Origin: Candidatus Binataceae bacterium
Lineage (GTDB): Bacteria; Desulfobacterota; Binatia; Binatales; Binataceae
Assembly (NCBI GenBank): GCA_963722605.1
Contig: CAVRNO010000003.1
Location: forward strand, 632,700-696,699
DNA: 64,000 bases
Direction of reading: 5' to 3'
Position 1 is the stretch's first letter. The number at the start of each line of letters is the position of its first letter. A program made the translations under genes and the position numbers. The notes under the pieces are model-generated. The model searched no databases and had not been told where the DNA came from. It saw only the letters and a program-made list of their open reading frames with translations. Positions 17,494-52,817 of the stretch are shown here, one piece after another.

Positions 17494-17522
17494 TTGACAT
17501 AATCAGTCGGGAATTGTTTACT
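17494..17522 (+). promoter_or_regulatory. Putative sigma70 promoter of the radical SAM gene
   Basis: TTGACA (17494-17499), 17 bp spacer, TTTACT. Confidence 0.5.
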
Positions 17523-17526
17523 GTCT

Positions 17527-17542
17527 CTGACCGACCGGTTAG
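17527..17542. promoter_or_regulatory. Palindromic operator-like site 1 (CTGACCGACCGGTTAG)
   Basis: Near-perfect palindrome just downstream of the -10; 13/16 identical to the site at 25599. Confidence 0.65.
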
Positions 17543-17628: not shown

Positions 17629-19500
17629 ATGGTATTTCTTATATTTTTCGGCGCATTTCTGGTTTTCGCGGCGAGTATCCTCTACTGGCTGTTAGGGACG
17701 AATCGTTACGGCGGTGATCGTCCCGCCGCCAAGCTTCAGTTGACCGCACGCCAGGGTGCGATCGCCGAGGCGGCGATAAAGCCCGAGCCTTGCCGCACGA
17801 TTCGCGTCTATTTCATCAAACCCTCGCGGTACGACGAGGAGGGATTCGTCCAATACTTCCGCTACGGCGTTCAGCCCAACAACACTTTGACGGTGCTGAC
17901 GGCGCTCAACGAGGCGTTCAACAAGCGTTACGCGGTCGAGCGAAACGTCCGGCTCGAGACGGTAATTTGGGACGAAATCTGCGACGGGGTAGTCAGCCCC
18001 GAGACGATCAAGGCGATAAAGGAAAAGGCGCGCGAAGATGGCGTCGAGTTGCTGATCGGGCTGGCCGGGGTGCAATCGAATCAGTATCCGCGCGGGCGTG
18101 ACCTCGCGCTTCAGTTCGTCGCCGAAGGCCTGCCCACGATGATGGGCGGCTTCCATGTCAGCGGCTTTCCGGATTCGCGCAAGTTCCTGAACGAGTGCGG
18201 CGTCACGACCGTGATCGGCGAGGCGGAAAACATCTGGGGCTATATCGTCGAGGACTTCCTGCGCGGCGAGCTGCGCAAGAGTTATTCGGTGACGGAGGGA
18301 ATTCGCGCGAAGACCGGCCAGGACGACATCACGGTTCCGCTGATCACAGAGACACTGCTGCCGACGCTGGACGATCGTTACCTGACGCGATTTTTCAACG
18401 ATACGATGACCACGCTCGACACTTCGCGCGGATGCCCGTTCACCTGCTCGTATTGCAGCGTGAAAAACGTGATGGGCCGCACGATGCGCTCGCGCGAGCC
18501 CGACGCGGTGGTAAGCTGGGTGCGCGACGCATGCCGCAACCACGGGATCGAGTCGCTGTTCCTGGTGGACGACGATTTTTTCCGCTCGCCGCGATGGGAA
18601 GAAATTCTCACCGGCTTGATCGAGGTGAAGAAGGACTATCCCAAGCTTTCCTTCATGATGCAGGTGGACGTCGATGCGTCGTGCTACGCGAACGTCGCCG
18701 ACGGCGAGACCGAGACCGCCAAGCATCGGCGCAGCAAACGTTTCACCGAGCTGGCCGCAGCCGCGGGATGCTACCAGGCGTTCGTCGGAATCGAGTCGCT
18801 CAACCCCGACAACCTGAACTTTGCGACCAAGTACCAGAACACCGACAACCGCCAGAACAAGTGGTCGCTGGAAAAGGCGCGCGCGCACGTGATCGACAAG
18901 TATCGCCGCGTGGTCGAGAACTGGCACAAAGTCGGTGTGTCGGTGCATGCCGGCTACATGCTGGGATTCCCGTTCGACGGTCCCGATTGCGGGCGGGTGG
19001 CGGTGGCGACGCTGAAGAAGATCGGATTTGACCTGGTGTCGTTCTTTATCATGACTCCGCTGCCGGGCACTGAAGATCAGGCGCGCTTCACCCGGGAAGG
19101 CAAGATCACCGACTGGGACTTCAACCAGCTCGACTCGCAGCACGTCACGCTCAAGCACGACAGGATGGACAAGGAAAGCTGGCTCGGCGCGTACCGCGAC
19201 GCTTACAAGGGCTTCTATTCGATCCCGCGCCTGCTCTACAGCATTTTCACCATCTCCGCCGGGCGCGGACTCAGCGCGGAGGCGCGCTGCTCGACGCTGC
19301 GCCAGTTCACCTATTATTTCTTCAGCCATCGCCAGGGACGCCATCCGATGGTCGGCGGGGTATGGCCGATTCGCCGGCGCGACGTCCGCCGGATGGCAGT
19401 CAGCGACGACGAGGCGCGCCGCTGCTACCTGGGCGGGAAGCGCTTCGACGCGATTTTGCGCGGCGACGCCGGCGATGGATTCGCCGGGGCTCCGGCCTAA
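17629..19500 (+). CDS. Membrane-anchored B12-binding-like radical SAM protein of unknown function
   Basis: N-terminal TM helix; RGCPFTCSYC; VDDDFF, FVGIES, TPLPGT class-B-like motifs; N-terminus unlike HpnP, HpnR or HpnJ. Confidence 0.85.
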   Translation: MVFLIFFGAFLVFAASILYWLLGTNRYGGDRPAAKLQLTARQGAIAEAAIKPEPCRTIRVYFIKPSRYDEEGFVQYFRYGVQPNNTLTVLTALNEAFNKRYAVERNVRLETVIWDEICDGVVSPETIKAIKEKAREDGVELLIGLAGVQSNQYPRGRDLALQFVAEGLPTMMGGFHVSGFPDSRKFLNECGVTTVIGEAENIWGYIVEDFLRGELRKSYSVTEGIRAKTGQDDITVPLITETLLPTLDDRYLTRFFNDTMTTLDTSRGCPFTCSYCSVKNVMGRTMRSREPDAVVSWVRDACRNHGIESLFLVDDDFFRSPRWEEILTGLIEVKKDYPKLSFMMQVDVDASCYANVADGETETAKHRRSKRFTELAAAAGCYQAFVGIESLNPDNLNFATKYQNTDNRQNKWSLEKARAHVIDKYRRVVENWHKVGVSVHAGYMLGFPFDGPDCGRVAVATLKKIGFDLVSFFIMTPLPGTEDQARFTREGKITDWDFNQLDSQHVTLKHDRMDKESWLGAYRDAYKGFYSIPRLLYSIFTISAGRGLSAEARCSTLRQFTYYFFSHRQGRHPMVGGVWPIRRRDVRRMAVSDDEARRCYLGGKRFDAILRGDAGDGFAGAPA

Positions 19501-22761: not shown

Positions 22762-22765
22762 CTAG

Positions 22766-23187: not shown

Positions 23188-23217
23188 CTAGAAGGCGCGC
23201 TCGCGGAGTAAATCTTC

Positions 23218-23499
23218 ATGAAGCTGACCGAAGCACGAGTATTGTTCCTGGCGCGCGAGTCGATCGCAAAATTGCGCGACGAGGGCCTGGCCGAGATCGC
23301 AAACTTTCCGCTCGCGCTGCGCCAGGCGCGCGAAATCGTGGCGCAGTTCAACGAGCAGGGTGACGAGATCGACGCGATCGTGAGGCGCAAGATCAATTCG
23401 ATCAAACGCGGCGTCGTCGAGGGTTCCAACGAATGGACGATCCTCTACAAGCGCTACCGCGACGAAGAGCTGCGCAAGAAAGGCCCCCGGCAGGGCTGA
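23218..23499 (+). CDS. DUF507-family protein (copy B)
   Basis: MKLTEARVLFLA...EIDAIVRRKINSIKRGVVEGSNEWTILYKRYRDEE. Confidence 0.8.
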   Translation: MKLTEARVLFLARESIAKLRDEGLAEIANFPLALRQAREIVAQFNEQGDEIDAIVRRKINSIKRGVVEGSNEWTILYKRYRDEELRKKGPRQG

Positions 23500-25486: not shown

Positions 25487-25565
25487 AATCAAATAGTTAG
25501 GGCGAAATATCTCACTGGGAACATTTTGGCCCGAACTGATCGCCTGACCGATCGGACTGTCTCTC

Positions 25566-25593
25566 TTGACATTCGGAAGTGTGACGGTAAAGT
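25566..25593 (+). promoter_or_regulatory. Putative sigma70 promoter of the TetR-hpn operon
   Basis: TTGACA, 16 bp spacer, TAAAGT. Confidence 0.55.
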
Positions 25594-25598
25594 TACCA

Positions 25599-25614
25599 TT
25601 GACCGAAAGGTTAG
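25599..25614. promoter_or_regulatory. Palindromic operator-like site 2 (TTGACCGAAAGGTTAG); weaker copy CTGACCGATCGGACTG at 25544-25559
   Basis: Immediately downstream of the -10 and upstream of the TetR gene; shares the motif at 17527 and 52720. Confidence 0.65.
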
Positions 25615-25639
25615 CCGGATTATCGAGACGAGAAGCACT

Positions 25640-26305
25640 ATGGGCGAAGCGCAGGCCAAACAATCAGGCTCATCCGAGCCGCGCGTACAATCGCAGGATT
25701 CGCGGGACGAGATTCTGAAGGCGGCGATGGAGCTATTTGCCAATCGCGGCTTCCACGAGACGTCGATGTCGGAAGTGGCGCGCGAGGCGCGGGTCAGCAA
25801 GGCGCTGATTTTCTGGCATTTCAAGACCAAGGAAGAGCTGTTCGTGGCGGTGCTGAACCGGCTGCTGGAGCCGTACTTTATCGATTTTGCCGAAGAGGCG
25901 TCGATGGACGAGCGGGTGCAGATCGAGAAGCTGGTGGAGGCTTACCTGCGGTTCGTGCGTGACAACGCGAGCTCGGTGCGTTTTTTCCTGGCGCAGATGC
26001 TCCACGACCAGGGGCTGTCCGAGAGTCTCAACGACCAGGTGCTCAAGCTGTATAGCGGATATCGCGCGATGCTGGTGGAACTGATCGCGCGCGCGCAGCA
26101 AAAGGGCATCTGCACGCGGCGGACGGCGCCCGAATCGGCGGCGGCGTTTCTGCTGTCGGCGCTGAACGGATTGCTGATCGAATACCTGTTCATGGGGCCG
26201 AACGCGGTCGATCCGGAAGGAGCAGTGGCGATGGTCGGCGAGTGGCTGTTCGGGGAACCATCGGGGTCATCTTCGTCGGAGGCTGGCGGCGCGCCGGCCG
26301 CCTGA
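25640..26305 (+). CDS. TetR/AcrR-family transcriptional regulator heading the hopanoid operon
   Basis: ILKAAMELFANRGFHETSMSEVAREARVSKALIFWHFKTKEEL HTH. Confidence 0.93.
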   Translation: MGEAQAKQSGSSEPRVQSQDSRDEILKAAMELFANRGFHETSMSEVAREARVSKALIFWHFKTKEELFVAVLNRLLEPYFIDFAEEASMDERVQIEKLVEAYLRFVRDNASSVRFFLAQMLHDQGLSESLNDQVLKLYSGYRAMLVELIARAQQKGICTRRTAPESAAAFLLSALNGLLIEYLFMGPNAVDPEGAVAMVGEWLFGEPSGSSSSEAGGAPAA

Positions 26306-26352
26306 ATTTCTAACTCTTCACTTTCTTCAACATCCGAGGAGAACGCACAGAA

Positions 26353-27357
26353 ATGCGCCTTCCACCGAGACAAATGATCGATCTGGCCCGCTACATCCGC
26401 GCGAAGAAGCGCTCGGGCGAGAAGTATTTTCCGCTGGTGCTGATGCTCGAGCCGCTGCATGCGTGCAACCTTGCGTGCATCGGATGCGGGCGAATCGTCG
26501 AGTACAAGGACACGATCCGCGACATGATGCCGCTGGACGAGGCGCTGCATTCGGCCGAGGAAGCGGGCGCGCCGCTGGTGTCGATCTGCGGCGGCGAGCC
26601 GCTGATGTACAAGTATATCGTGGCGCTGACGCGGGGGTTGATCGAGGATCAGAGGCGTCACGTCATGATCTGCACCAACGCGGTGCTGCTGGAGCGATTC
26701 GTCAAGCAGGTGGCGCCGAGCCCGTACCTGAGCTTCAACCTGCATCTGGACGGGATGCGCGAGACCAACGATCGCGTGACCGACCGGCAGGGGCATTTCG
26801 ACACCGTGGTGAAGATGATCAAGATGCTGAAGGAGAAGGGCTACCGGGTACAGACCAACACGACGGTGTTCCGCGAGACCACCAGCGACGAACTCGAACG
26901 GATGATCAAGTACCTGACGACCCTCGAGGTCGACGGGATGCTGCTGAGCCCCGGCTATCACTACCAGGTGATGGGCAACGACGACGAGTATCTGAAGAAA
27001 GAGGAGATGCCGGCCAAGTTTTTCAAAGTCCGCGACATGGCCGACGACTACAAGATCGTCAATACGCCGATATACCTGGACTACCTGGTGGGCAAACGCG
27101 AGCTGCAGTGCAGTCCGTGGACGACGGTGACGCGCAATCCGCGAGGATGGAAGGGGCCCTGCTACCTGATAACCAACGGCCACTACAAGACGTTCGAGGA
27201 AATGCACGCGGCGACGGACTGGGAGTACTACCGGACCAAGCAGGATTTCCGCTGCCGCGACTGCAAGCTGCATTCGGGATTCGAGGGCACGGTGGCGCTC
27301 GATTTCGGCAAGAATCTCAAAGACTCGTGGCGGATGGTGCGCCATTACGTGGCGTGA
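26353..27357 (+). CDS. hpnH: Adenosyl-hopene transferase HpnH (radical SAM)
   Basis: FPLVLMLEPLHACNLACIGCG, GGEPL, C-terminal CRDCKLHSGFE. Confidence 0.92.
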   Translation: MRLPPRQMIDLARYIRAKKRSGEKYFPLVLMLEPLHACNLACIGCGRIVEYKDTIRDMMPLDEALHSAEEAGAPLVSICGGEPLMYKYIVALTRGLIEDQRRHVMICTNAVLLERFVKQVAPSPYLSFNLHLDGMRETNDRVTDRQGHFDTVVKMIKMLKEKGYRVQTNTTVFRETTSDELERMIKYLTTLEVDGMLLSPGYHYQVMGNDDEYLKKEEMPAKFFKVRDMADDYKIVNTPIYLDYLVGKRELQCSPWTTVTRNPRGWKGPCYLITNGHYKTFEEMHAATDWEYYRTKQDFRCRDCKLHSGFEGTVALDFGKNLKDSWRMVRHYVA

Positions 27358-27532
27358 GGGAGCGTCTGCGCTTTCGACGCGGAGAGCGCTCGCGCGCGAC
27401 TGACCAATCAACCTAGCCAAGCGGAAGAGGAACGATCGCGTGAGGAAAAATCCCGATCAGTTTTTCAGCTCTTCAGCGCCGCGGCCGAGCCCAAGGTCAG
27501 CGCCGCCGGCGGCGGGACAAGAGCAACGAGAG

Positions 27533-28423
27533 ATGTTCGACTTGCACAGCTATTTGAAGGAGCGGGCGCAGATTATCGAGCGGGCGCTCGCTCAATGCGT
27601 CGAGCAGCCGGCGGGCGCGGCGGCGCGCCTGCATGAGGCGATGCGCTACTCGCTGCTGGCAGGCGGCAAGCGGCTGCGGCCGGTGCTGGTGCTGGCGTCG
27701 TGCGAGGCGGTCGGCGGGAAAGCCGGGGCGGCGATGGGACTGGCGTGCGCGGTCGAGATGATTCACACCTACTCGCTGATTCACGACGACCTGCCGTGCA
27801 TGGACGACGACGATCTGCGCCGCGGGCGCCCCACCAATCACAAGGTCTATGGCGAAGCGATCGCGACGCTGGCGGGCGACGCGCTGCTGACGGACGCATT
27901 CAAGGTGCTCGCGCGCTCGGCGGACAACAGCGCGCCGGCGGCGCTGGTGCTGGAAACGATCGCGGAGCTTGCCGACGCGGCGGGATCGGGCGGGATGGTT
28001 GCGGGGCAGGTGATCGATCTGCTCGGCGAGGGCAAGTCGAAGACGATCGAGGAGCTCGAAGAACTGCACGGCAAGAAAACCGGGGCGCTGTTCATAGCGT
28101 CGGTTCGCGGCGGCGCGCGCCTGGGCGGCGCGAGCGGGGCGCAAATCGAATCGCTCGACGCATACGCGCGCGCGCTCGGGCTGGCGTTCCAGGTCGTCGA
28201 TGACCTGCTGGACGTTCAAGGCACGGCCGAGCAGATGGGCAAACGCACGCAAAAGGACGTGGAGCGCGGCAAGGCGACCTATCCCGCGATATTGGGAATC
28301 GAGCGCTCGCTCGACCTGGCGCGCGAGCTCGAATCGCGAGCGCATCGCGCAATCGCCGGTTTCGGGCATCGCGCCGACGCGCTGCGGCACATCGCAACCT
28401 TCGTCGTGGAGCGCAAGCTGTGA
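27533..28423 (+). CDS. ispA: Farnesyl/geranylgeranyl diphosphate synthase
   Basis: GGKRLRP, HDDLPCMDDDDLRRGRPT, FQVVDDLLD; alternative GTG start at 27440. Confidence 0.92.
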   Translation: MFDLHSYLKERAQIIERALAQCVEQPAGAAARLHEAMRYSLLAGGKRLRPVLVLASCEAVGGKAGAAMGLACAVEMIHTYSLIHDDLPCMDDDDLRRGRPTNHKVYGEAIATLAGDALLTDAFKVLARSADNSAPAALVLETIAELADAAGSGGMVAGQVIDLLGEGKSKTIEELEELHGKKTGALFIASVRGGARLGGASGAQIESLDAYARALGLAFQVVDDLLDVQGTAEQMGKRTQKDVERGKATYPAILGIERSLDLARELESRAHRAIAGFGHRADALRHIATFVVERKL

Positions 28424-29487
28424 ACGCGGCCGAAGCGTCGGTAGAAATCGCGGGGACGCATTCGCGCCAGGCCGTGCTGGTGGAGCCCGGGCGGCTCGAA
28501 TTGCGCGACTACGTCGTGCCGCATCCGGGGCCGGGCGAATTGCTGATTCAAATCCGCTGCGCGCTGAGTTGCGGCACCGATCTGAAAATGTTTCTGCGCG
28601 GGCATCCGCTATGGACGCTGCCGATTGCCTTCGGGCACGAGTTTTCCGGGGTGGTGGTGGAAGCAGGCGAGGGCGTGACCGCCTTCAAGCCCGGCGACGA
28701 AATAATGGCGGCGCCGACCGCGCCGTGTGGAATCTGTTTTTACTGCCAGCATGGGCAGGAGAATCTTTGCGACGATGCGGTCGGGCGGATGGTGCTCGGC
28801 GCGTACGCGGACATGCTGCTGCTGCCGGCGCACGTCGTCGCGCGCAATACGTTTATCAAACCGGCGTACCTGCCGTTCGAAGAAGCCGCGCTGCTCGAGC
28901 CGCTTTCGTGCGTGGTTCATGCCCAGGAAATGGCGCGTCCCGAAAAGACCGAGACGGTGGCGATCATCGGCGGCGGCGCGTTCACCCTGCTGCACATGAT
29001 GGTGCTGAAGGCTGCGGGCGTGCGCGAGGTGGTGGTCGTGGGGCGAGACGCCCGGCGGCTTAAGTGGGCGCAGGAGAGGGGCGCGGACCGGGTGATCGAC
29101 GCGCGCAGCCCCGACGCGAGCGCTGAAATCGCACGGCTCAACGGCGGCTTCGGCCCCGACCTGGTGATCGAGTGCACGGGGCAGGTCGAGGGATGGCAGG
29201 ATGCGGTGGCGCGGGTGCGGCGCGGAGGGCGGGTAGTATTTTTCGGCGGATGTCCGGCGGGCACGGCGCTCAGGGTCGATACGCGACTGATGCATTACGA
29301 CAATCTGACGTTGATGTCTCCGTTTCATTTTCGGCCGCGCGATGTGCGGCGCGCTTACGAATTGCTGGCGGGGCGCACGCTGAACGCGGGCTCGATCGTC
29401 AACGCGCGAATGCGGCTTGGCGATTTGAGGGAAGTGTTCGCGATGCTCGAGCGAGGCGTGGTTCTGAAATGCGCCGTGATTCCATAG
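28420..29487 (+). CDS. Zinc-dependent (MDR) alcohol dehydrogenase
   Basis: CGTD, GHEFSG, CGICFYC..GQENLC; GTGA overlap with ispA. Confidence 0.9.
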   Translation: MNAAEASVEIAGTHSRQAVLVEPGRLELRDYVVPHPGPGELLIQIRCALSCGTDLKMFLRGHPLWTLPIAFGHEFSGVVVEAGEGVTAFKPGDEIMAAPTAPCGICFYCQHGQENLCDDAVGRMVLGAYADMLLLPAHVVARNTFIKPAYLPFEEAALLEPLSCVVHAQEMARPEKTETVAIIGGGAFTLLHMMVLKAAGVREVVVVGRDARRLKWAQERGADRVIDARSPDASAEIARLNGGFGPDLVIECTGQVEGWQDAVARVRRGGRVVFFGGCPAGTALRVDTRLMHYDNLTLMSPFHFRPRDVRRAYELLAGRTLNAGSIVNARMRLGDLREVFAMLERGVVLKCAVIP

Positions 29488-29553
29488 TGGAATGCGGCGA
29501 GGTTGCGGCGGGTTCCCGCGGGATGCGGACTTCGGTTCAAGCAAGGGTGAATT

Positions 29554-31512
29554 ATGAGTCAGGCCATTGAAATTGGAAGCACGGCGATCGCCATGTCGCC
29601 GCATGACGAGTTCGTCGCGAAGATTGATTACACGGTAGCTCGCGCGCAGCGCGCGCTTATCGCGCTGCAGAAGCCCGAGGGCTACTGGCACGCGCCGCTG
29701 GAGGCGAACGCCGAGATGAACGCGGAGTTCATCATCTTCAGCCATTTTATGGACACGGTCGATCTCGAGGTCGAAGCGCCGCTCAAGAAGCATCTGCTGG
29801 AGACTCAGAGTCCGGACGGGAGCTGGGCGCTTTACCAGGGCGCCGAAGGGCATCTGTCGACGACGATCGAAAGTTATTTCGCGCTGAAGCTCACCGGCAT
29901 GCGCGCGGGTGACGAGCCGATGGCGGCGGCGCGGCGCTGGATCCTGTCCAAGGGCGGGATCGTGAACTGCGGGACGCTGGCGCGCTTCTATCTGGCGGCG
30001 ATGGGGCAGATAACCTGGGAGGCGACGGCTGCGCTGCCGGTGGAACTCTCGCTCTTCCCGAACTGGTTCCCGTTCAACATTTACGAGCTCGGTTCATGGG
30101 CGCGCGGAACGCTGATGGGACTGATGATGCTGCAGGCGGCGCGTCCCGAGAAAAAGATCGATTACCAGCGCGGAGTGCTGGAGCTGTTCATCCAGCCGCC
30201 GCATTTCACCAAGTTCAAACAGCCGCGCGGAAAAAAGTTCCTGTCTCTGCGCAACGCGCTGAACCTCGCCGACCAGGCGCTGCGCTTCTACGATCGGCAC
30301 AAAATCAAATCGCTCCGCGCGCGCGCGCTGCGCGTCACGGAAAACTGGCTGGTCGAGCATCAGGATGCCAACGGCTCGTGGGGCGGAATCGAGCCGTGCT
30401 ACCTGCTGAGCGCGATGGCTCTGAAAGCCAACGGCTACCGCAACGACCATCCGGTGCTGAAGAAAGCGATCGAGGCGTCGCAGGAACTGATTTGGCACTT
30501 CAAAGACTACGACATGTACATGCCGTGCGTGTCGGTCAACTGGGACACGGCGCTCGCGGCTCGGGCGCTGCTGGATTCGGGATTGCCGGGCGACCATCCG
30601 GCGCTGAAGCAGACCTCGCAATGGTTTATCGATCATCAGATTTTCAAGAAGGGCGATTGGTCGGTAAAGCGGCCCGAGCTCGAGCCGGGCGGATGGGCGT
30701 TTCAGTTCTACAACGACTGGTATCCCGACGTGGACGATTCGGCGGTAATTCTGTCGGTGATGGCGGATTCGGCGGCTGATGACGCCGCGGGCAGGGAGCG
30801 CGCGATCCGCGTTGGCGCCAACTGGGTGATGGGAATGCAGTCGAAAGACGGCGGCTTCGCGGCGTTCGACGTTGACAACGATTCAACCTGGCTCAATCAT
30901 TTGCCGCTCGCGGACGTGGAAGCGGTGACGGATCCGTCGTGTCCCGATCTCACCGGAAGGGTGCTCGAGATGATGGGGTCGGTCGGCTATCGCACCGAGC
31001 ATCCGGTGGCGAAGCGCGCGATCGAATGGCTCAAGCGAAATCAGTCGCCGGCGGGCGGATGGTGGGGACGCTGGGGCATCAACTATATCTACGGCACTTT
31101 CTCGGCGCTGTCGGGCTTGCGCGCGATCGGCGTCGATATCAACGAGCCGTGGATCAAGCGGGCGGTCGAGTGGCTCAAGTCCAAGCAGAATCCCGACGGC
31201 GGCTGGGGCGAGAGCCCGCTGTCGGACAAGGATCCCGCGTGGCACGGGCGCGGAACCAGCACGGCGTCGCAGACAGCGTGGGCGCTGATCGGATTGATCG
31301 CGGGCGAGGCGGGAATCAGCGAGCACGCGGTGCGCGGCGCGCAGTGGCTCTCAGAGCGGCAGAACGATGAGGGCGCGTGGGACGAGAGCGAATCGACCGG
31401 CAACGGATTCCCGAATCATTTTTATCTTCGCTACCACATGTACGCGCATTACTTTCCGCTGATGGCGCTTGGGCGGCTGCGCCGGCGGCTGGTGGAGACG
31501 GCGCCGCATTGA
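29554..31512 (+). CDS. shc: Squalene-hopene cyclase
   Basis: YPDVDDSA catalytic motif; QW repeats (QSPDGSW, QDANGSW, QNPDGGW, QNDEGAW). Confidence 0.97.
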   Translation: MSQAIEIGSTAIAMSPHDEFVAKIDYTVARAQRALIALQKPEGYWHAPLEANAEMNAEFIIFSHFMDTVDLEVEAPLKKHLLETQSPDGSWALYQGAEGHLSTTIESYFALKLTGMRAGDEPMAAARRWILSKGGIVNCGTLARFYLAAMGQITWEATAALPVELSLFPNWFPFNIYELGSWARGTLMGLMMLQAARPEKKIDYQRGVLELFIQPPHFTKFKQPRGKKFLSLRNALNLADQALRFYDRHKIKSLRARALRVTENWLVEHQDANGSWGGIEPCYLLSAMALKANGYRNDHPVLKKAIEASQELIWHFKDYDMYMPCVSVNWDTALAARALLDSGLPGDHPALKQTSQWFIDHQIFKKGDWSVKRPELEPGGWAFQFYNDWYPDVDDSAVILSVMADSAADDAAGRERAIRVGANWVMGMQSKDGGFAAFDVDNDSTWLNHLPLADVEAVTDPSCPDLTGRVLEMMGSVGYRTEHPVAKRAIEWLKRNQSPAGGWWGRWGINYIYGTFSALSGLRAIGVDINEPWIKRAVEWLKSKQNPDGGWGESPLSDKDPAWHGRGTSTASQTAWALIGLIAGEAGISEHAVRGAQWLSERQNDEGAWDESESTGNGFPNHFYLRYHMYAHYFPLMALGRLRRRLVETAPH

Positions 31513-31522
31513 GCGCGTCGCG

Positions 31523-32694
31523 ATGAAGGCGATTTCAATTCTGGGCTCGACCGGCTCGGTCGGCGTCACCACGCTGGACGTGGCCGGGCGATTCAGCGAC
31601 CGATTCCGCGTGGTCGCGATGGCGGCGGGACGCAACCTGGATCTGCTGACGGAGCAGGTGAAGCGCTTTCATCCCGAACTGGTCTCGGTGGCGACGCCCG
31701 AACTCGCGCGCGAACTGGCGGCGCGCGTCGGTGCGCAGCGCGTGACGATCGTGCACGGACTCGAAGGCGCGATCGCCGTCGCAACCCATCCCGCGGCGAA
31801 GCTGGTGATGTCGGCGCTGGTCGGCGCGATGGGCTTGCAGCCGACGCTGGCGGCGATCAAGGCCGGCAAGGACATCGCGTTTGCCAACAAGGAAGTGCTG
31901 GTCGTTGCCGGCGCGTTGATCACCGCGGCGGCGCAGCGAGAATCGGCGTGCGGCTGCTGCCGGTGGACAGCGAGCACAACGCGGTTTTTCAATGCCTGGA
32001 AGGACGCGGGCGCGAGTCGTTGAAGCGGATCATTTTGACCGCGTCGGGCGGGCCGTTTCGCGAGCGGGCGGCCGACAGTTTCGAATCGATCACAGTCGAA
32101 CAGGCGCTGAAGCATCCGACCTGGCGCATGGGCAGCAAGGTTACGATCGATTCGGCGACGCTGATGAACAAGGGGCTCGAGGTGATCGAGGCGCGGTGGC
32201 TGTTCGATCTCAAGCCCGCCCAGGTCTCGGTGGTGATTCATCCGCAGAGCGTGATTCATTCGATGGTCGAAATGATCGATGGCTCGGTGATCGCGGAGAT
32301 GGCGATTCCCGACATGGCAATTCCGGTGGCGTACGCGCTCGGCTATCCGGAGCGGCTGCCGATGACGCATCTGAAGCCGCTGTCACTGGCGGAAAATTCG
32401 CGCTTGACGTTTGAAGAACCCGACCTCGGGCGCTTCCCCTGTCTGCGGCTGGCGTACGAGGCGCTGGCTGCCGGGCACACGATGCCGGCGTGCCTCAACG
32501 CCGCCAACGAGGAACTGGTGGCGGGCTTTCTGGCGGGGCGCGTGCGTTTCATCGACATCCCGCGCCATATCGAAACCGTGATGCAACGGCATCACAACTC
32601 GGCGGCGCAAACGATCGAAGATCTGCTGGAGACGGATGGATGGGCGCGAGCCGCGGTGCGCGAACTTATCGGAGCGCGGCCGGTAGCGGCCTGA
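31523..32694 (+). CDS. dxr: 1-deoxy-D-xylulose-5-phosphate reductoisomerase, frameshifted near 31940
   Basis: ILGSTGSVG and ANKE in the first frame; LPVDSEH, TASGGPFR, HPTWRMG.KVTIDSATLMNKGLE, NAANE in the second. Confidence 0.95.
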
Positions 32695-32698
32695 GACG

Positions 32699-33625
32699 AT
32701 GGCACTCGTGGGGGCCAACGTGCAGAGCGAAGGAACCTCGTACGTAGCGAGCGCGGCGCGGGACGCGTCGCCGCCGCCAGGAGCGTTCGACGTGGCGGGC
32801 GCGTACCAGTTCTGCGCTCGGCTGGCAAAATCGCACTACGAAAATTTCACGGTCGCATCGTGGCTGATGCCGCGCGAGATGCGGCCGCATATGTACGCAA
32901 TTTACGCGTACGCGCGGATGGCGGACGACTTTGCCGACGAGCATCACGACCTGGCAATGCTCGACGAATGGGAGCGCGAGCTCGACCTGGCGTACGCCGG
33001 CGCTCCGCGCCATCCGGTATTCGTCGCGCTCGCCGACACGGTGCGCCGCTTCGATATTCCGCGCGAGCCGTTCAAAGATCTTTTGACTGCGTTTCGATCC
33101 GACGTGGACTTCAAGGGCTTCGACACGCTCGACGATCTGCTCGGCTATTCGCGCTACTCGGCGAATCCGGTGGGACGGCTGGTGCTTTACCTGTTCGGCT
33201 ACCGCGACGCCGAACGGCAGCGGCTGTCGGACCTGGTCTGCAGTGGATTGCAGCTCGCCAACTTCTGGCAGGACGTTGCAGTCGATCTCGGCAAGGGACG
33301 GATCTATCTTCCGCGCCGCGACATGGAACGATTCGGGGTCACGCCGGCGGACCTGGCCGCGCACACCTCGTCGCGCGAGTTCGTGGAGTTGATGCGTCAT
33401 GAGGCGGGGGTCGCGCGAGCGATGCTGGTTGAGGGGGGAGAATTGCACAAGCTCGTGGACAAGCGGCTGCGGCGCGACATCGTGATGTTCGCGGGCGGCG
33501 GGCTGGCGATTATCCGCGCGATCGATCGCGTCAACTACGACGTATTCCGGATGCGTCCGGAACTGACGAAGCTCGACTACCTGAAACTCGGATGGAGCGC
33601 GCTGCGTGGACGGCTTGAAGCCTGA
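32699..33625 (+). CDS. hpnC: Hydroxysqualene synthase HpnC
   Basis: SHYENFTVAS, ADDFADE, SANPVGRLVL, LQLANFWQD. Confidence 0.92.
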   Translation: MALVGANVQSEGTSYVASAARDASPPPGAFDVAGAYQFCARLAKSHYENFTVASWLMPREMRPHMYAIYAYARMADDFADEHHDLAMLDEWERELDLAYAGAPRHPVFVALADTVRRFDIPREPFKDLLTAFRSDVDFKGFDTLDDLLGYSRYSANPVGRLVLYLFGYRDAERQRLSDLVCSGLQLANFWQDVAVDLGKGRIYLPRRDMERFGVTPADLAAHTSSREFVELMRHEAGVARAMLVEGGELHKLVDKRLRRDIVMFAGGGLAIIRAIDRVNYDVFRMRPELTKLDYLKLGWSALRGRLEA

Positions 33626-34529
33626 CAGCATCGCCGCCGGGATCGAAGAAGCCGCCGGCCGCGACGGCGCGTCGCTGGACGCCGACTACGCCCGCTGCGC
33701 GCAAATCACGCGCCGCTCGCGGTCGAGCTTTTACTACGCGTTTATCCTGCTGCCGCCCGAGCGGCGCCGGGCGCTGTACGCCGTGTATGCATTCTGCCGA
33801 TTCGTCGACGATATCGCCGACGACGAGGCGATTCGCGAGCCGGCGATGCTGCTGCGCCGGTGGCGCGAGGAACTTGACCGCGCGTACGCGGGCGTGCCGA
33901 CGCGCGCGCTCTTCCGCGCGCTCGCCGACAGCGCGCGGCGATATGCAATCCCGCGGGAGCTGTTCGAGGAGATCATCGCCGGCGTGGAGATGGATCTTTC
34001 GCGCAAGCGCTATCAAACGTTTGAAGAGTTGCGGCCGTACTGCTATCGCGTCGCGTCCGCGCTGGGCCTCATCTGCATCGAGATTTTCGGCTACCGCAAT
34101 CCGTCGGCGAAGTTGTACGCGGAGAATCTCGGGCTGGCGCTCCAGTTGACCAACATTATCCGCGACGTGGGCGAAGACGCCGCGCGCGGGCGCATCTATC
34201 TTCCGCTGGAAGACCTCGCGCGATTCAAGGTGAGCGAGGATGAAATTCTGGCGGGCGTGTACTCGCCCAACTTCGTCAGCCTGATGAACTTCGAGGCAAA
34301 ACGCGCGCAGGAATTTTACGCGAAGGCGCAGAGCGCGCTCGCGCCCGAGGATCGCGCGACGCTGCTGACGGCCGAGGCGATGCGGCTTATCTATGCCGCG
34401 TTGCTCGAGCGGATCATCAGGTCGAACTATCGCGTGCTCGACCGCCGCCACAGCCTGTCCGCGCCGCACAAGCTCTACCTGGTCGGCCGCGCGTGGGCGG
34501 CGGGCCGCTTCGGCGCACTGCACGGATGA
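33606..34529 (+). CDS. hpnD: Presqualene diphosphate synthase HpnD
   Basis: SSFYYAF, VDDIAD, YCYRVAS, LQLTNIIRDVGED. Confidence 0.92.
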   Translation: MDGLKPDSIAAGIEEAAGRDGASLDADYARCAQITRRSRSSFYYAFILLPPERRRALYAVYAFCRFVDDIADDEAIREPAMLLRRWREELDRAYAGVPTRALFRALADSARRYAIPRELFEEIIAGVEMDLSRKRYQTFEELRPYCYRVASALGLICIEIFGYRNPSAKLYAENLGLALQLTNIIRDVGEDAARGRIYLPLEDLARFKVSEDEILAGVYSPNFVSLMNFEAKRAQEFYAKAQSALAPEDRATLLTAEAMRLIYAALLERIIRSNYRVLDRRHSLSAPHKLYLVGRAWAAGRFGALHG

Positions 34530-34563
34530 GGGGGATGCGCGCGGCGAATTAGATGGCATCGGC

Positions 34564-35918
34564 GATGAAACACGCGGTCGTGATCGGCGCGGGCTTCGCG
34601 GGACTCAGCGCAGCGGTCGCGCTCGCCGAGCGCGGCGTGCGGGTCACGGTGCTGGAAGGAAAACCCGCGCTCGGCGGGCGCGCGTATTCGTTCACCGAAC
34701 CGGACACCGGAGATTTCGTCGACAACGGACAGCACGTGCTGATGGGTTGTTACGGCGAGACGCTCGATTTTCTCAAGCGGATCGGCGCTTACGACCAGTT
34801 GGTGTTTCACGAAGATTTGGAAATCGAAATGCTCGCGGGTCCCGGCCGCAGTGCGATCCTGAAAACGGCGCGGCTGCCCGGACCTCTGCACATGACGGCG
34901 GCGTTGCTCGGCTACCGGCATCTGAGCATCGCGGAGCGGATCGCGGTCATGCGCGGCGGACTGCGCATGCTCGCGATGAGGCGGTTCGGCGGCGGCGAGT
35001 TGCGCCGCCTCACCGTCGCGCAGCTGATGGATCGTATCGGGCAATCAGAGCACGCGCGCCGGTGCTTCTGGTATCCGATGTCGATCGCGACGCTGAACGA
35101 CGAGCCGCAATCGTCGTCGGCGCAGTTGTTGGCCGAGGTCCTCAAGCGGGCGTTCTTTTCGCGCCGCCGCGACTCGGCGTTCGTTTATTCGCGCGTCGGG
35201 CTGAGCGACCTGTACTGCACGGGCGCGCAGCGAGTGATCGAGCGGGGCGGCGGGCAGGGTGGTCTCCCGTTCGATCGTGGAGATGCTGGAATTCGGCGCT
35301 CGAGGCCATGTCGCAAGCGTGCGGCTGCGCGACGGACAGCGAATCGAGGCGTCGGACTTCATCAGCGCGGTGCCGGCGCCCCAGTTGCTGCGGTTCCTGC
35401 CCGAAAACGCGGTTGCCGATCCATTTTTCTCGCGCTTCACGGGTCTTTCGAGCTCGCCGATCATCTGCGTGCACGTATGGCTCGATCGCGAAGTGACTAA
35501 TTCACCGTTCATCGGGTTTATCGGCACTACTACTCAATGGCTATTCAACAAGCGTCGAATTTTCGCGCAGCGCGGCGAGGCGCATCCGGGCTACCTGAGC
35601 TTCGTGATCAGCGGCGCGCGAAAGCTGGTCGATCGCAGCAACCAGGAAATCCTGGATATCGTGATTAACGATCTCCACGCGATGATTCCCGCGTCGCGCG
35701 GAGCCGGAGTCGTGAAGTCGCTGGTGCTCAAGGAGAAAAACGCCACGATGGCGCCGAACCTGCGGTCGCATGAGCTGCGTCCGACGGCGAAAACGCCAAT
35801 CGCGAACTTCTTCCTGGCCGGTGACTGGATACAAACCGGGCTGCCCGCGACGATTGAGAGCGCGGTGATTTCAGGGCGGGCTGCAGCCGCCGCAGTCTGC
35901 GGGCGAAATGCTGAATAG
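34564..35918 (+). CDS. hpnE: Hydroxysqualene dehydroxylase HpnE, frameshifted near 35255
   Basis: GAGFAGL, GGRAYSF, DNGQHVLMGCY; second frame ends LAGDWIQTGLPATIESAVISG. Confidence 0.92.
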
Positions 35919-35925
35919 CTATTGA

Positions 35926-36939
35926 GTGAATCCGATGACTACTAAGTTAGCGCTGGTGACGGGCGGCAACGGATTCGTGGGATGCCACGTCGTCCGCGCG
36001 CTCCTTGCCCGCGGCGATCGCGTGCGGGTGATGGCGCGCGAGAACGCGGATTTGAGCGCGCTGGTCGGCCTGCCGGTCGAGATCGTGCGCGGCGATCTGC
36101 GGCGCTTCGATTCCGTCGAGCGCGCGGTCAATGGGTGCGACGAGGTTTATCACGTAGCCGCCGATTACCGGCTGTGGCTGACCGATCCGGCGCCGATGTA
36201 TGCGACCAACGTCGGGGGTACGCAGCATGTTATCCGGGCCGCGGCGAACGCCGGTGTTTCGCGAATCGTTCACACTAGCACGGTGGGGGCGCTGGGAATT
36301 CCGCACGGCGGGGTGGGGCGCGAAGAGACGCCGTCGTCGCTCGCCGAAATGACGGGACATTATAAGAGATCCAAGTACATGGCGGAGCAGGCGGCGCTGG
36401 AAGCGGCCCGCGCGGGCGTGCCGGTGGTGATCGTGAATCCATCGACGCCGATCGGCGCGCTCGACTTGAAGCCGACTCCGACCGGCCGAATCATCGTGGA
36501 CTTCCTGAATCGGCGGATGCCGGCGTACATGGAGACCGGCCTCAACATCGTCGATGTCGAAAATGTCGCACGCGGCCATCTGCTGGCGGCGGAGCGCGGC
36601 CGAATCGGCGAGAAGTACATTCTCGGCGGTGAAAATCTCACGCTGAAGGAATTTCTCGGGCGGCTCGCCATGATTTCCGGGCTGCCCGCGCCCAAGGTGA
36701 GGATTCCGTACGCGGTCGCGCTGGGGTATGCGCTCGGCGCCGAAGCGTTTGCGCGCACCGTCACACGCCGGGCGCCGCGGGCCAGCCTGACCGAGGTGCG
36801 GATGGCGCGAAAGCGGATGTTCTTCGACTCGTCGAAGGCGCGCGCAGAGTTGGGCTATTCGCCGGGGCCGATCGATGCGGCGCTGGCGTCAGCGATAGAA
36901 TTCTTCAGATCCAAAGGGACGGCCAAGAGCGCCGCGTAA
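35926..36939 (+). CDS. hpnA: Hopanoid-associated sugar epimerase HpnA
   Basis: TGGNGFVG, HVAADYRLW, YKRSK, VNPSTPIG..D.KPTPTG. Confidence 0.9.
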   Translation: MNPMTTKLALVTGGNGFVGCHVVRALLARGDRVRVMARENADLSALVGLPVEIVRGDLRRFDSVERAVNGCDEVYHVAADYRLWLTDPAPMYATNVGGTQHVIRAAANAGVSRIVHTSTVGALGIPHGGVGREETPSSLAEMTGHYKRSKYMAEQAALEAARAGVPVVIVNPSTPIGALDLKPTPTGRIIVDFLNRRMPAYMETGLNIVDVENVARGHLLAAERGRIGEKYILGGENLTLKEFLGRLAMISGLPAPKVRIPYAVALGYALGAEAFARTVTRRAPRASLTEVRMARKRMFFDSSKARAELGYSPGPIDAALASAIEFFRSKGTAKSAA

Positions 36940-36947
36940 GCCACGCC

Positions 36948-37874
36948 ATGCATTTACTACTGTCCACGATCGCGCTGCGCCCGTACGTGTTCATCTTTCT
37001 GGTGAGTTTTTTGTGTATTGCGATCGTGAACTTCGGCCTGCGCACGACGGCCTTGTTTACGCTCCTGACCTACGCCGCCTCGCTGGCGTGCGAGTGGTCT
37101 TCAATCCACAACGGATTCCCGTTCGGGCTGTATCACTATATCGACGCGACCCGCGGGCGCGAGCTTTGGGTGTTCGGCGTACCGTTCATGGATTCGCTGT
37201 CGTTCACGTTCCTGGCTTTCGCCAGCTATACGGTCGCGCTGTTGCTCAGTTCGCCGTTGTATCGGCGGGGCGCGGATATCCGGATTCTCGACACGTGGCA
37301 AATTCGCCTTGCGCCGCGGGTATGGCTGATGGCGGCGCTGTTCATGGTGATGGTGGACCTGGTGGTCGATCCGCTGAGCGTGCTCGGCGACCGATGGTTC
37401 CTCGGCAAAATTTTCTGGTACGATCGGCCGGGTCCGCACTTCGGCGTGCCGATCAGCAACTACCTGGGATGGTATTTCGTCGCCGCGATCACGATTGCGA
37501 TTTTCCAGTGGCTCGACGCGGCGTTTAATCGCGGCCCGGAGAAGCCGGCGCGTTCGCTTCCCGCGATGCGTTCGCGCGCGTTGCTGGGTCCGGCGCTCTA
37601 TGCGGGGATCGTGATCTTCGGAATCACGATGCTGTTCCGAATCAAGGAGCCGGAAATCGGATGGGCTGCCGTGTTCATCTACCTGCCCTTCACGGTCCTG
37701 GCGATTCATATTCTGACCCGCCGCGAATCCTGGGGCGACCAGGCGGCGATCGAGCGCCATCTTGCAGACTTTCCCTACGAGCGCGATCTTCCCGTCTGGA
37801 AGCCGGCGAGCGCGCGCACCCGCGAGCCGCACCTGCGCATCGCGCGCACAGACCACCGCCGGCGAGGCGCTTGA
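36948..37874 (+). CDS. CruF/DUF422-like (carotenoid hydratase family) membrane protein
   Basis: E..SIHNGFPFGLYHY, FGVP, DLVVDP, GVPISNYLGW; multiple TMs. Confidence 0.8.
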   Translation: MHLLLSTIALRPYVFIFLVSFLCIAIVNFGLRTTALFTLLTYAASLACEWSSIHNGFPFGLYHYIDATRGRELWVFGVPFMDSLSFTFLAFASYTVALLLSSPLYRRGADIRILDTWQIRLAPRVWLMAALFMVMVDLVVDPLSVLGDRWFLGKIFWYDRPGPHFGVPISNYLGWYFVAAITIAIFQWLDAAFNRGPEKPARSLPAMRSRALLGPALYAGIVIFGITMLFRIKEPEIGWAAVFIYLPFTVLAIHILTRRESWGDQAAIERHLADFPYERDLPVWKPASARTREPHLRIARTDHRRRGA

Positions 37875-52719: not shown

Positions 52720-52735
52720 CTGGCCGATTGGTCAG
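52720..52735. promoter_or_regulatory. Palindromic operator-like site 3 (CTGGCCGATTGGTCAG)
   Basis: About 80 bp upstream of the hpnR start; one mismatch to CTRACC-N4-GGTYAG. Confidence 0.6.
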
Positions 52736-52817
52736 GCGGAGATTTGTCGAAGATTAGCGAACCAGGCGGAAGGCGCCGCGGCCTCACAGCCAAAAGATGC
52801 GGCGCCGGAGGGAGTCT

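What the first reader, a model, noticed from the sequence alone, without database searches (positions are those of the whole stretch)
25544..26305. Candidate undescribed TetR regulon for hopanoid biosynthesis (three dispersed operators)
Seen: the same 16-bp palindrome (consensus CTRACC-N4-GGTYAG) occurs at 17527 (CTGACCGACCGGTTAG), 25599 (TTGACCGAAAGGTTAG, with a weaker copy at 25544) and 52720 (CTGGCCGATTGGTCAG). All three are intergenic and upstream of, respectively, an orphan B12 radical SAM gene, the TetR-led hpnH...shc...hpnCDEA operon, and hpnR. At 17527 and 25599 the site lies 4-5 bp downstream of a TTGACA-16/17-(-10) promoter, which is repressor geometry. Known: TetR proteins commonly autoregulate through such palindromes and sense lipophilic ligands. 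Inference: this TetR is a dedicated hopanoid-pathway repressor spanning 35 kb, possibly sensing a hopanoid or isoprenoid intermediate.
Basis: partly seen in the sequence, partly recalled or inferred. Interest (0 to 1): 0.82.

Follow-up and report, generated by a model that had tools for sequence, protein, structure and literature searches.

The report
TetR operator regulon for hopanoid synthesis
A conserved 16-base palindrome marks the promoters of hopanoid, isoprenoid and S-adenosylmethionine genes in an uncultured soil bacterial group, and the TetR-type regulator at the head of the hopanoid operon is its likely repressor, which would be a dedicated genetic switch for making these sterol-like lipids.

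Summary
All four palindromes are at the stated coordinates. They are real cis-elements, not chance. In relatives (Candidatus Binatus/Binataceae), a motif match lies within 300 nt upstream of the tetR orthologue in 25 of 25 genus loci and 77 of 80 family loci. The figures are 30 of 30 for the 623-aa radical SAM gene and 25 of 28 for hpnR. A reversed-matrix control gave 0 throughout. This holds even where the genes lie on other contigs or more than 1 Mb apart. Conserved sites also sit in the metK-ahcY promoter and upstream of hpnJ, both outside the window. In other families of the class the motif precedes hpnH, hpnI, shc, dxr, HMG-CoA reductase, mevalonate decarboxylase and IPP isomerase. A single-copy TetR orthologue with an invariant recognition helix (VSKALI[F/L]WHF) co-occurs with these sites. 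Site positions (promoter spacer, just after the -10, flanking the tetR promoter) fit repression. Binding by this TetR, the sign of regulation and the effector are inferred, not shown. My searches found no published description. Verdict: a new member of the TetR repressor kind, controlling isoprenoid and hopanoid synthesis plus SAM supply.

The parts
17494..17522 (+). Putative promoter of the 623-aa radical SAM gene: -35 TTGACA (17494-17499), 17-bp spacer, -10 TTTACT (17517-17522)
   Evidence: Read. The layout is conserved in 30 of 30 genus loci. The consensus scan does not call it, because the -10 lacks A at position 2.
17527..17542 (+). Operator B, CTGACCGACCGGTTAG, 4 bp after the -10 and 87 bp before the radical SAM start codon
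   Evidence: CTGACCGA[C/G][C/T]GGTTAG lies upstream of the orthologue in 30 of 30 loci, including genomes where that gene is far from tetR.
17629..19500 (+). 623-aa radical SAM protein whose N-terminus reads as hydrophobic (by eye, no prediction run); uncharacterised regulon member
   Evidence: PF04055 42 bits. The best NCBIfam hit is HpnJ at 58.7 bits, far under its 577.6 cut-off. The best PDB hit is TokK at E 2e-5. Homologues carry only generic names.
25544..25559 (-). Operator O2 (CAGTCCGATCGGTCAG on the minus strand), 6 bp upstream of the -35 of the tetR promoter
   Evidence: 22.5 bits. In one search, 'CTGACCG..CGGA' was found 54-64 bp before O1 in 25 of 25 genus loci. Across all 105 genus and family loci it lay at exactly -55 in 51 and at -28 in 4; other offsets were not tallied, and 2 of the 14 printed family loci showed none.
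25566..25593 (+). tetR-hpn promoter: TTGACA, 16-bp spacer, TAAAGT
   Evidence: 10 of 12 consensus positions. Conserved in relatives.
25599..25614 (+). Operator O1, TTGACCGAAAGGTTAG, 5 bp after the -10 and 25 bp before the TetR ATG
   Evidence: TTGACCG-N3-GGTTAG lies upstream of tetR in 25 of 25 genus and 80 of 80 family loci. The half-sites are invariant and the spacer varies.
25640..26305 (+). TetR-family regulator (221 aa), the proposed repressor
   Evidence: PF00440 73.9 bits and TetR_C_6 32.5 bits. One copy per genome. The recognition helix VSKALIFWHF is invariant in alignment A1 and in class-level orthologues.
26353..37874 (+). Co-directional hopanoid/isoprenoid gene row: hpnH, FPP synthase, Zn-dehydrogenase, shc, dxr (split), hpnC, hpnD, hpnE (split), hpnA, CruF-like membrane protein
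   Evidence: Gaps between genes are at most 83 bp by ORF coordinates. That it is one operon is inferred. A metatranscriptome contig of a relative bridges tetR and hpnH, which is only a weak hint.
52720..52735 (+). Operator C, CTGGCCGATTGGTCAG, 61 bp before the hpnR start codon
   Evidence: A motif match lies upstream of hpnR in 25 of 28 loci, and one further locus shows the site. The identical 16-mer is seen throughout.
52797..54311 (+). hpnR, hopanoid C-3 methylase (B12-binding radical SAM)
   Evidence: TIGR04367 855.1 bits, cut-off 650.

Best explanation
The 16-bp palindrome (consensus CTGACC-GA-NN-GGTCAG, each promoter keeping its own one- or two-base variant) is the operator of the TetR-family protein encoded at 25640-26305. 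In this genome the protein would bind as a dimer at six sites in five promoters.
- O1 and O2 flank the core promoter of its own tetR-hpnH-FPPS-shc-dxr-hpnCDE-hpnA row.
- One site lies just after the -10 of the 623-aa radical SAM gene.
- One lies upstream of hpnR.
- One lies about 22 bp upstream of hpnJ (G000 C2:1690259).
- One fills the 17-bp spacer between the -35 and -10 of metK-ahcY (G000 C3:405427).

Occupancy would block RNA polymerase, so the protein acts as a repressor. A small-molecule effector would release it, or strengthen it. The result is that isoprenoid and hopanoid synthesis, the four radical SAM tailoring enzymes and SAM regeneration are switched together. The same regulator-operator pair is older than the family: in other families of the class it sits at mevalonate, MEP and hopanoid genes.

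Shown: the motif, its conservation, its positions and its co-occurrence with the TetR orthologue. Inferred: that this TetR binds it, that the effect is repression, and what the effector is.
For: (1) Conservation anchored on the downstream gene (site of at least 18 bits within 300 nt upstream): tetR 25 of 25 genus loci and 77 of 80 family loci, the other three scoring 16.5-17.3 bits; radical SAM gene 30 of 30; hpnR 25 of 28; metK 25 of 28. The reversed-matrix control gave 0 in every set. The scoring matrix was built from these same site classes, so the scores are partly circular. The gene anchoring and the control are not.

(2) The half-sites stay fixed while the last spacer bases and the flanks vary.

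(3) The sites follow their genes when the genes are unlinked. In G007 the sites lie at 2.47 Mb (tetR), 4.11 Mb (radical SAM gene), 3.91 Mb (hpnR) and 1.75 Mb (metK).

(4) Genome scan of G000: seven sites of at least 20 bits against a control maximum of 18.2. Six of them lie in the five promoters named.

(5) TetR linkage: tetR with the site upstream and hpnH downstream in 105 of 105 loci.

(6) Class level. Of the 20 motif sites fetched, chosen by motif and not by gene content, 13 lie just upstream of HpnH, HpnI (2), SHC, YjbQ-Dxr (3), HMG-CoA reductase, mevalonate diphosphate decarboxylase (2), type 2 IPP isomerase or 3-oxoacid CoA-transferase (2). One more precedes a truncated CoA-transferase. 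From, four genomes of another family have the site between the -35 and -10 of the mevalonate operon, one has it 3 bp before hpnI, and four have it before hpnJ.

(7) Co-occurrence. Every family with such sites that I checked has one TetR orthologue (33-46% identical by BLAST alignment) with the helix VSKALI[F/L]WHF. In two families that have only generic TetR hits (E 1e-15 or weaker), 0 of 4 motif sites examined lie at isoprenoid genes. One complete genome (G031) with no orthologue has no strict motif.

(8) Geometry: operators lie within or abut core promoter elements.
Against: No binding, expression or ligand data exist, and the organism is uncultured.

Outside Binataceae the TetR orthologue is not next to hopanoid genes. 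It sits beside ClpB, ribonucleotide reductase and MraZ genes, and no site with up to 3 mismatches lies within 1.5 kb of it in 3 of 5 loci; the other 2 have only a 3-mismatch match. So autoregulation, the main link between protein and motif, holds only in one family.

Three families with TetR homologues rarely match the strict pattern: 1 of 18, 3 of 17 and 1 of 17 genomes. With the looser 15-mer, non-Binataceae genomes show no excess over the reversed control, by my hand tally.

The sites fall into two sub-types: ...GGTTAG at tetR and the radical SAM gene, and CCGATTGGTCAG at hpnR and metK. These could belong to two proteins.

The hpnJ site is inverted relative to its gene. No consensus promoter was found at hpnR, so repression geometry is not established there.

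Related genomes are not independent, so the counts overstate statistical weight.
Confidence: 0.7

Rival explanations
1. The motif is a real operator, but it belongs to a different, unlinked transcription factor conserved across the class. The TetR in front of hpnH is then merely one of its targets, or a local regulator with another, unrecognised site.
For: Outside Binataceae the TetR orthologue has no nearby site and sits in a housekeeping context. Co-occurrence of TetR and motif could simply reflect shared ancestry.
Against: Two operators flank the tetR promoter in 25 of 25 genus loci, which is the usual signature of autoregulation. A 16-bp palindrome with 6-bp arms suits a TetR dimer (established knowledge of the family). 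The recognition helix is invariant, as are the half-sites. No other regulator gene is a conserved neighbour of any site: the second TetR at 54927 lies beside hpnR only in this genome, 1 of 30 loci.
Confidence: 0.17
2. There are two regulators with related half-sites. The TetR binds the TGACCG-N3-GGTTAG type (its own promoter, the radical SAM gene, perhaps hpnJ). A separate regulator tied to SAM or methionine binds the CCGATTGGTCAG type (hpnR and metK-ahcY).
For: The hpnR and metK sites share 15 of 16 bases including the non-palindromic spacer GATT. The tetR and radical SAM sites share the GGTTAG arm. The 12-mer CCGATTGGTCAG occurs up to 5 times per genome (none in 1 of 31 genomes), against 2 control hits in all 31 genomes. 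A TetR-type repressor that responds to S-adenosylhomocysteine and controls methionine genes is known, McbR (PMC4239095, passage read).
Against: Intermediate forms exist. The hpnJ site is CTGTCCGATTGGTTAG, with the metK-type left arm and spacer and the tetR-type right arm. O2 read on the minus strand is CAGTCCGATCGGTCAG, which is metK-like, and it sits in the tetR promoter. All classes share G3, C5, C6, G7, G11, G12, T13, A15 and G16. G000 has only one TetR of this clade.
Confidence: 0.1
3. The palindromes act as RNA hairpins in the 5' leaders (attenuator or riboswitch-like elements) and not as protein-binding DNA.
For: At the tetR, radical SAM and hpnR sites the departures from a perfect palindrome would be G-U wobbles in RNA of the sense strand (read). 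O1 has a GAAA loop.
Against: The metK site and the mevalonate-operon sites lie between the -35 and -10, and O2 lies upstream of the -35, so they would not be transcribed. The metK and hpnJ variants have a U-U mismatch. The loop sequence varies freely. The window and the metK locus gave 0 Rfam matches at gathering score.
Confidence: 0.02
4. The resemblance among the three sites is chance.
For: By simple base-frequency reckoning a pattern this degenerate would occur a few times in 3.7 Mb, which is no fewer than the 3 seen.
Against: Each site is conserved upstream of its orthologue in 25-30 genomes with 0 control hits. In other families the motif recurs at isoprenoid genes.
Confidence: 0.01

Closest known systems
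KstR / KstR2 of Mycobacterium (TetR-family repressors of the cholesterol catabolic regulon; recalled, no paper read here)
   Same: A TetR-family protein governing many dispersed promoters of a polycyclic-triterpenoid pathway through a short palindromic operator, with autoregulation.
   Different: KstR controls catabolism of a host sterol and senses a CoA-thioester intermediate. This regulon is biosynthetic (isoprenoid precursors, squalene, hopanoid tailoring) and includes SAM-cycle genes. No KstR model appeared among the NCBIfam hits at E 1e-10 or better, and no PDB relative beyond generic TetR likeness was found (best E 6e-13).
McbR of Corynebacterium (TetR-type, S-adenosylhomocysteine-responsive repressor of methionine/cysteine genes; PMC4239095, passage read)
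   Same: A TetR-type repressor that controls methionine and SAM metabolism genes. It is a precedent for a TetR controlling such genes and sensing a SAM-cycle metabolite.
   Different: McbR's regulon is sulphur amino-acid biosynthesis, not lipids. Sequence relatedness beyond the family HTH was not tested here.
AibR of Myxococcus xanthus (TetR-like regulator of the isovaleryl-CoA branch off the mevalonate pathway) and CrtR of Corynebacterium glutamicum (MarR-type, senses isoprenoid diphosphates); both recalled, not read here
   Same: Bacterial repressors that tie isoprenoid-related genes to a pathway intermediate.
   Different: They cover single operons (aib/mvaS; crt). CrtR belongs to another family. 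Neither is reported to control hopanoid genes or SAM supply.
EcfG-dependent control of hpnP in Rhodopseudomonas palustris (recalled, not read here)
   Same: One of the few described transcriptional controls of a hopanoid-modifying gene.
   Different: It is a general-stress sigma factor acting on one methylase gene, not a dedicated repressor with operators across the whole pathway.

Membership tests
TetR family of transcriptional regulators (Pfam PF00440 plus a C-terminal ligand domain) | N-terminal helix-turn-helix domain of TetR_N type | tested here: met
   PF00440 73.9 bits against cut-off 24, residues 25-71.
TetR family of transcriptional regulators (Pfam PF00440 plus a C-terminal ligand domain) | All-helical C-terminal effector/dimerisation domain | tested here: met
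   TetR_C_6 32.5 bits (cut-off 27) and TetR_C_24 27.9 bits (cut-off 26.4). Structure prediction could not be run.
TetR family of transcriptional regulators (Pfam PF00440 plus a C-terminal ligand domain) | Binds a short palindromic operator as a dimer, commonly in its own promoter | not testable with these tools
   Indirect only: conserved palindromes O1 and O2 flank the tetR promoter in 25 of 25 genus loci, and O1 is present in 105 of 105 loci.
TetR family of transcriptional regulators (Pfam PF00440 plus a C-terminal ligand domain) | DNA binding modulated by a small-molecule ligand | not testable with these tools
   No ligand can be inferred. The closest named NCBIfam models (MtrR, ScbR, FasR, FadR, BetI) all score far under their cut-offs.
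Hopanoid biosynthesis gene set (hpn genes, NCBIfam equivalogs) | Target genes score above the curated equivalog cut-offs | tested here: met
   In the window: HpnH 373.2/225; SHC 702.5/431; HpnC 319.2/250; HpnD 320.4/279; HpnA 459.4/368; HpnK 254.3/233; HpnR 855.1/650. HpnE is split into two pieces of 218.9 and 176.2 against 283. HpnJ of relative G008 (locus L234) 722.5/577.6; the G000 copy at C2:1690297-1691742 is 96% identical to it by tblastn.
Hopanoid biosynthesis gene set (hpn genes, NCBIfam equivalogs) | The 623-aa radical SAM protein belongs to a named hopanoid radical SAM family (HpnH, HpnJ, HpnP or HpnR) | tested here: not met
   The best hit is HpnJ at 58.7 bits against cut-off 577.6. 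It is filed as an uncharacterised radical SAM protein.
McbR-type SAH-responsive TetR repressors | Orthology to McbR and response to S-adenosylhomocysteine | not tested
   No McbR sequence was compared. The only likeness is functional: a TetR-type protein with a SAM-cycle operon in its putative regulon.

The most novel reading that the evidence does not exclude
A single-copy TetR clade, marked by the recognition helix VSKALI[F/L]WHF, is the master switch of triterpenoid lipid synthesis across the whole uncultured class that contains Binatus. Through one operator it would co-ordinate precursor supply (mevalonate or MEP genes, acetoacetyl-CoA), squalene and hopene synthesis, side-chain and ring tailoring by radical SAM enzymes, and regeneration of the SAM they consume. 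It would do so by sensing a pathway metabolite. By guilt of association the 623-aa radical SAM protein would then be a new hopanoid- or isoprenoid-modifying enzyme. In my literature searches this would be the first dedicated transcription factor described for hopanoid biosynthesis, and its ligand would name the signal that sets hopanoid levels.
Probability: 0.5. Interest if true: 0.78.

Novelty: new member of a known kind. Interest (0 to 1): 0.66.

Why it matters
Hopanoids are the bacterial counterparts of sterols and a major molecular fossil, yet to my knowledge (recalled, no paper read on this point) little is known about what controls their production. This is a candidate dedicated regulator with a defined operator. 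Its regulon spans precursor pathways, cyclisation, C-3 methylation (the source of the 3-methylhopane biomarker) and SAM supply. That makes the question testable in vitro even though the organisms are uncultured: express the 221-aa protein, test the five promoters, and screen pathway metabolites as ligands. The regulon also points to a 623-aa radical SAM protein of unknown function as a likely lipid-tailoring enzyme. It further shows that cells may budget SAM together with SAM-consuming lipid chemistry.

Tried and rejected
- Second TetR at 54927-55604 as the hpnR regulator: rejected. It lies beside hpnR only in this genome, 1 of 30 loci.
- Seventh strong site (G000 C2:1328657, 20.0 bits): it lies inside a frameshifted RND transporter ORF that is not HpnN. 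No HpnN match above cut-off exists anywhere in G000. I left it as unexplained or chance.
- Weaker matrix hits of 13-17 bits, including one 142 bp upstream of another TetR gene at C3:206301-206912: these fall within the control range and were not pursued.
- Loose 15-mer across the class: no excess over the reversed control outside Binataceae (my tally). The pattern is too degenerate, so it was replaced by the stricter pattern plus context checks.
- Known RNA families: 0 matches.
- Metatranscriptomes: nine RNA runs hold only 5-9% of the sampled words. The contigs laid from four of them are mostly 85-95% alike, so mainly from relatives. They cover tetR and hpnH, and one bridges the junction (26206-26783). 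Contigs cannot show starts or single transcripts. The uncovered promoter stretch 25442-25654 proves nothing.
- Literature: four searches (titles and abstract openings only) and one paper's passages (irrelevant) gave no description of a TetR regulator of hopanoid genes. Subscription journals and supplements were not searchable, so prior description cannot be excluded.
Full report
**1. What is in the window**

The window is G000:C3:632700-696699 of a 3.73-Mb, 62% G+C genome in four contigs. Titles of closely related public records name Candidatus Binatus and Candidatus Binataceae, all metagenome-assembled.

- 17527 CTGACCGACCGGTTAG
- 25599 TTGACCGAAAGGTTAG
- 25544 CTGACCGATCGGACTG
- 52720 CTGGCCGATTGGTCAG

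Pfam and NCBIfam confirm the genes. A TetR (25640-26305) heads a co-directional row: hpnH, FPP synthase, a Zn-dehydrogenase, shc, dxr, hpnC, hpnD, hpnE, hpnA and a CruF-like membrane protein (26353-37874). hpnR is at 52797-54311. A 623-aa radical SAM protein at 17629-19500 reaches no named family's cut-off.

The scan tool finds TTGACA-16-TAAAGT at 25566-25593, 5 bp before the 25599 site. At 17494-17522 I read TTGACA-17-TTTACT, 4 bp before the 17527 site. No consensus promoter is found at hpnR.

**2. Chance or not**

Its genome-wide count of 3 is no more than simple base frequencies would give. What matters is where the sites are and whether they are kept in relatives.

TGNCCGANNGGTNAG has four matches in the genome against 0 for the reversed control. 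All four are intergenic and co-oriented with the gene downstream. The fourth lies outside the window, upstream of metK-ahcY at C3:405427.

Conservation anchored on the downstream gene settles the question. A motif match of at least 18 bits lies within 300 nt upstream of:
- the tetR orthologue in 25 of 25 genus loci and 77 of 80 family loci (the other three score 16.5-17.3 bits with one-base variants; TTGACCG-N3-GGTTAG is present in 80 of 80);
- the radical SAM orthologue in 30 of 30 loci (no orthologue was found in 1 of 31 genomes, G013, which is 86% complete);
- hpnR in 25 of 28 loci (one further locus shows the site);
- metK in 25 of 28 loci.

The reversed matrix gives 0 in every set. The matrix was built from these same site classes, so the scores are partly circular. 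The anchoring on genes and the control are not.

The half-sites are fixed while the last spacer bases and the flanks drift.

The sites travel with their genes. In several genomes the radical SAM gene, hpnR and metK are on other contigs or up to about 1.6 Mb from tetR.

These counts include two genomes flagged unpublished, G019 and G024. Without them the figures are 23 of 23 (tetR, genus), 28 of 28, 24 of 26 and 24 of 26. No conclusion rests on them.

**3. The regulon is larger than three sites**

A fifth promoter emerged from relatives. CTGTCCGATTGGTTAG lies about 23 bp upstream of hpnJ, in inverted orientation. I saw this in three genus genomes and in one genome of another genus. HpnJ of G008 (locus L234) scores 722.5 bits.

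In G000 the hpnJ site is CTGTCCGCTTGGTTAG at C2:1690259, about 22 bp before the 96%-identical hpnJ copy at C2:1690297.

A matrix scan of G000 gives seven sites of at least 20 bits against a control maximum of 18.2. They are metK, hpnR, hpnJ, the radical SAM gene, O2, O1, and one inside a frameshifted RND transporter ORF that I leave unexplained.

The 'weaker copy' at 25544 is a conserved second operator. Read on the minus strand it is CAGTCCGATCGGTCAG. It lies 54-64 bp upstream of O1 in 25 of 25 genus loci, just upstream of the -35. O1 and O2 therefore bracket the core promoter.

At metK the operator fills the 17-bp spacer of TTGATT-N17-TATACC.

**4. Beyond the family**

I searched 151 genomes of the class with CTGNCCGANNGGTYAG and fetched contexts chosen by motif recurrence, not by gene content.

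Of the 20 loci, 13 have the site just upstream of an isoprenoid, hopanoid or precursor gene:
- HpnH, 37 bp upstream
- HpnI, two loci
- squalene-hopene cyclase
- yjbQ-dxr, three loci
- HMG-CoA reductase, with two sites 59 bp apart
- mevalonate diphosphate decarboxylase, two loci
- type 2 IPP isomerase
- a fused 3-oxoacid CoA-transferase, two loci

One further locus precedes a truncated copy of that CoA-transferase. Six are elsewhere or undetermined.

From:
- Four genomes of another family carry CTGTCCGATAGGTTAG between a TTGACA -35 and the -10 of the mevalonate decarboxylase-kinase operon, with a second site about 30 bp downstream.
- One genome has the exact tetR-type 16-mer 3 bp before hpnI.
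- Four loci are the hpnJ sites.
- The remaining five are inside ORFs, of unknown context, or the TetR locus itself.

**5. Which protein**

The TetR is single-copy. Clear orthologues (58-92% identity) are confined to Binataceae, where hpnH follows directly in 105 of 105 loci.

In other families the best hit is 33-46% identical by BLAST alignment but keeps the recognition helix VSKALI[F/L]WHF. That helix differs from the usual TetR consensus; a paralogue shows VTKGALYYHF.

Every family in which I found isoprenoid-linked sites and then looked has this orthologue. That includes one genome where it was first missed because a frameshift splits it.

Two families with only generic TetR hits (E 1e-15 or weaker) had 0 of 4 examined motif sites at isoprenoid genes. 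A complete genome without the orthologue has no strict motif.

Against this:
- Outside Binataceae the orthologue sits in housekeeping contexts with no convincing site nearby.
- Three families that have the homologue rarely match the strict pattern.
- All these genomes are kin, so the counts are not independent.

**6. Mechanism, committed**

The TetR binds the operator as a dimer and represses by occupying core promoter space. An unknown metabolite modulates binding.

My confidence by step:
- The motif is a functional cis-element: about 0.95.
- This TetR binds it: about 0.7.
- The effect is repression: about 0.65.
- The effector is an isoprenoid, hopanoid or acyl-CoA intermediate: about 0.35. 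SAM or SAH: about 0.2.

In Binatus the inferred members are hpnH, hpnJ, hpnR and the unknown enzyme, all radical SAM proteins, together with metK-ahcY. That membership suggests SAM supply is budgeted together with its lipid-directed use.

**7. Known relatives and novelty**

The protein meets the TetR family's sequence criteria. Binding and ligand response are untestable here.

In concept the closest systems are KstR (TetR, sterol catabolic regulon; recalled), McbR (TetR-type, SAH-responsive; PMC4239095, passage read), AibR and CrtR (recalled).

Four full-text searches (titles and abstract openings) and one irrelevant paper's passages gave no report of a TetR regulator of hopanoid genes. Subscription journals and supplements were out of reach.

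I rate this a new member of a known kind: an ordinary mechanism with an undescribed and biologically interesting regulon.

**8. Limits**

RNA evidence is limited to metatranscriptome contigs, mostly from relatives. They cover tetR and hpnH and once bridge them, which shows neither a transcript start nor a single transcript.

Noticed in passing
window 31469-32694; 34553-35918; 45708-47737: Three genes are each split into two overlapping ORFs in different frames: dxr (31469-32023 / 31948-32694), hpnE (34553-35500 / 35259-35918) and an M1 aminopeptidase (45708-46982 / 46931-47737). The overlaps contain short homopolymer runs. These may be assembly indel errors or real pseudogenes.
   Followed up: partly
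G000 C3:402684-405442 (outside the window): The metK-ahcY pair carries the best-scoring operator of the genome (26.7 bits) inside its promoter spacer. A leader of about 185 nt follows, with no Rfam match.
   Followed up: yes
window 17629-19500 and G000 C4:482579-484045: The 623-aa radical SAM protein has a 34%-identical paralogue elsewhere in the genome and in most genus genomes. Neither belongs to a named family. Only the window copy carries the operator.
   Followed up: partly
window 54927-56163: A second TetR gene (54927-55604) overlaps, tail to tail, a class I SAM methyltransferase gene (55591-56163, minus strand). Among 30 hpnR loci this TetR is next to hpnR only in this genome.
   Followed up: partly
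window 36948-37874: The last gene of the hpn row is a CruF/carotenoid-synthesis-like membrane protein (PF04240, 84.5 bits). It may be a hydratase acting on hopanoids or carotenoids.
   Followed up: no
window 44000-45643 (minus strand): An IS1595-family transposase (DDE_Tnp_IS1595 plus zinc ribbon; 547 aa) lies between the hopanoid cluster and hpnR.
   Followed up: no
G000 C2:1328301-1331549: An AcrB-like RND transporter gene is broken into pieces. It contains a 20-bit motif match, CCGACCGATTGGTCAG, inside coding sequence. It is not HpnN, and no HpnN match above cut-off was found in the genome.
   Followed up: partly
G000 C3:206301-207069: Another TetR gene has CTGACCGCTTGTTCAG 142 bp upstream (16.4 bits, within the control range). 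This may be a paralogue's operator or chance.
   Followed up: no
window 25520-25560 and relatives (L006-L023): In many relatives O2 is preceded by a direct repeat of its left arm (CTGACCGA-CTGACCGCTCGGAC). This hints at overlapping or tandem binding sites.
   Followed up: no
window 14894-17425; 22246-23499; 49717-52485: Three further genes: a PtsP-like GAF plus PEP-utilising enzyme I; a DUF507 pair split over two ORFs; and a 922-aa NHL/ASH/Ig-repeat protein divergent from hpnR.
   Followed up: no
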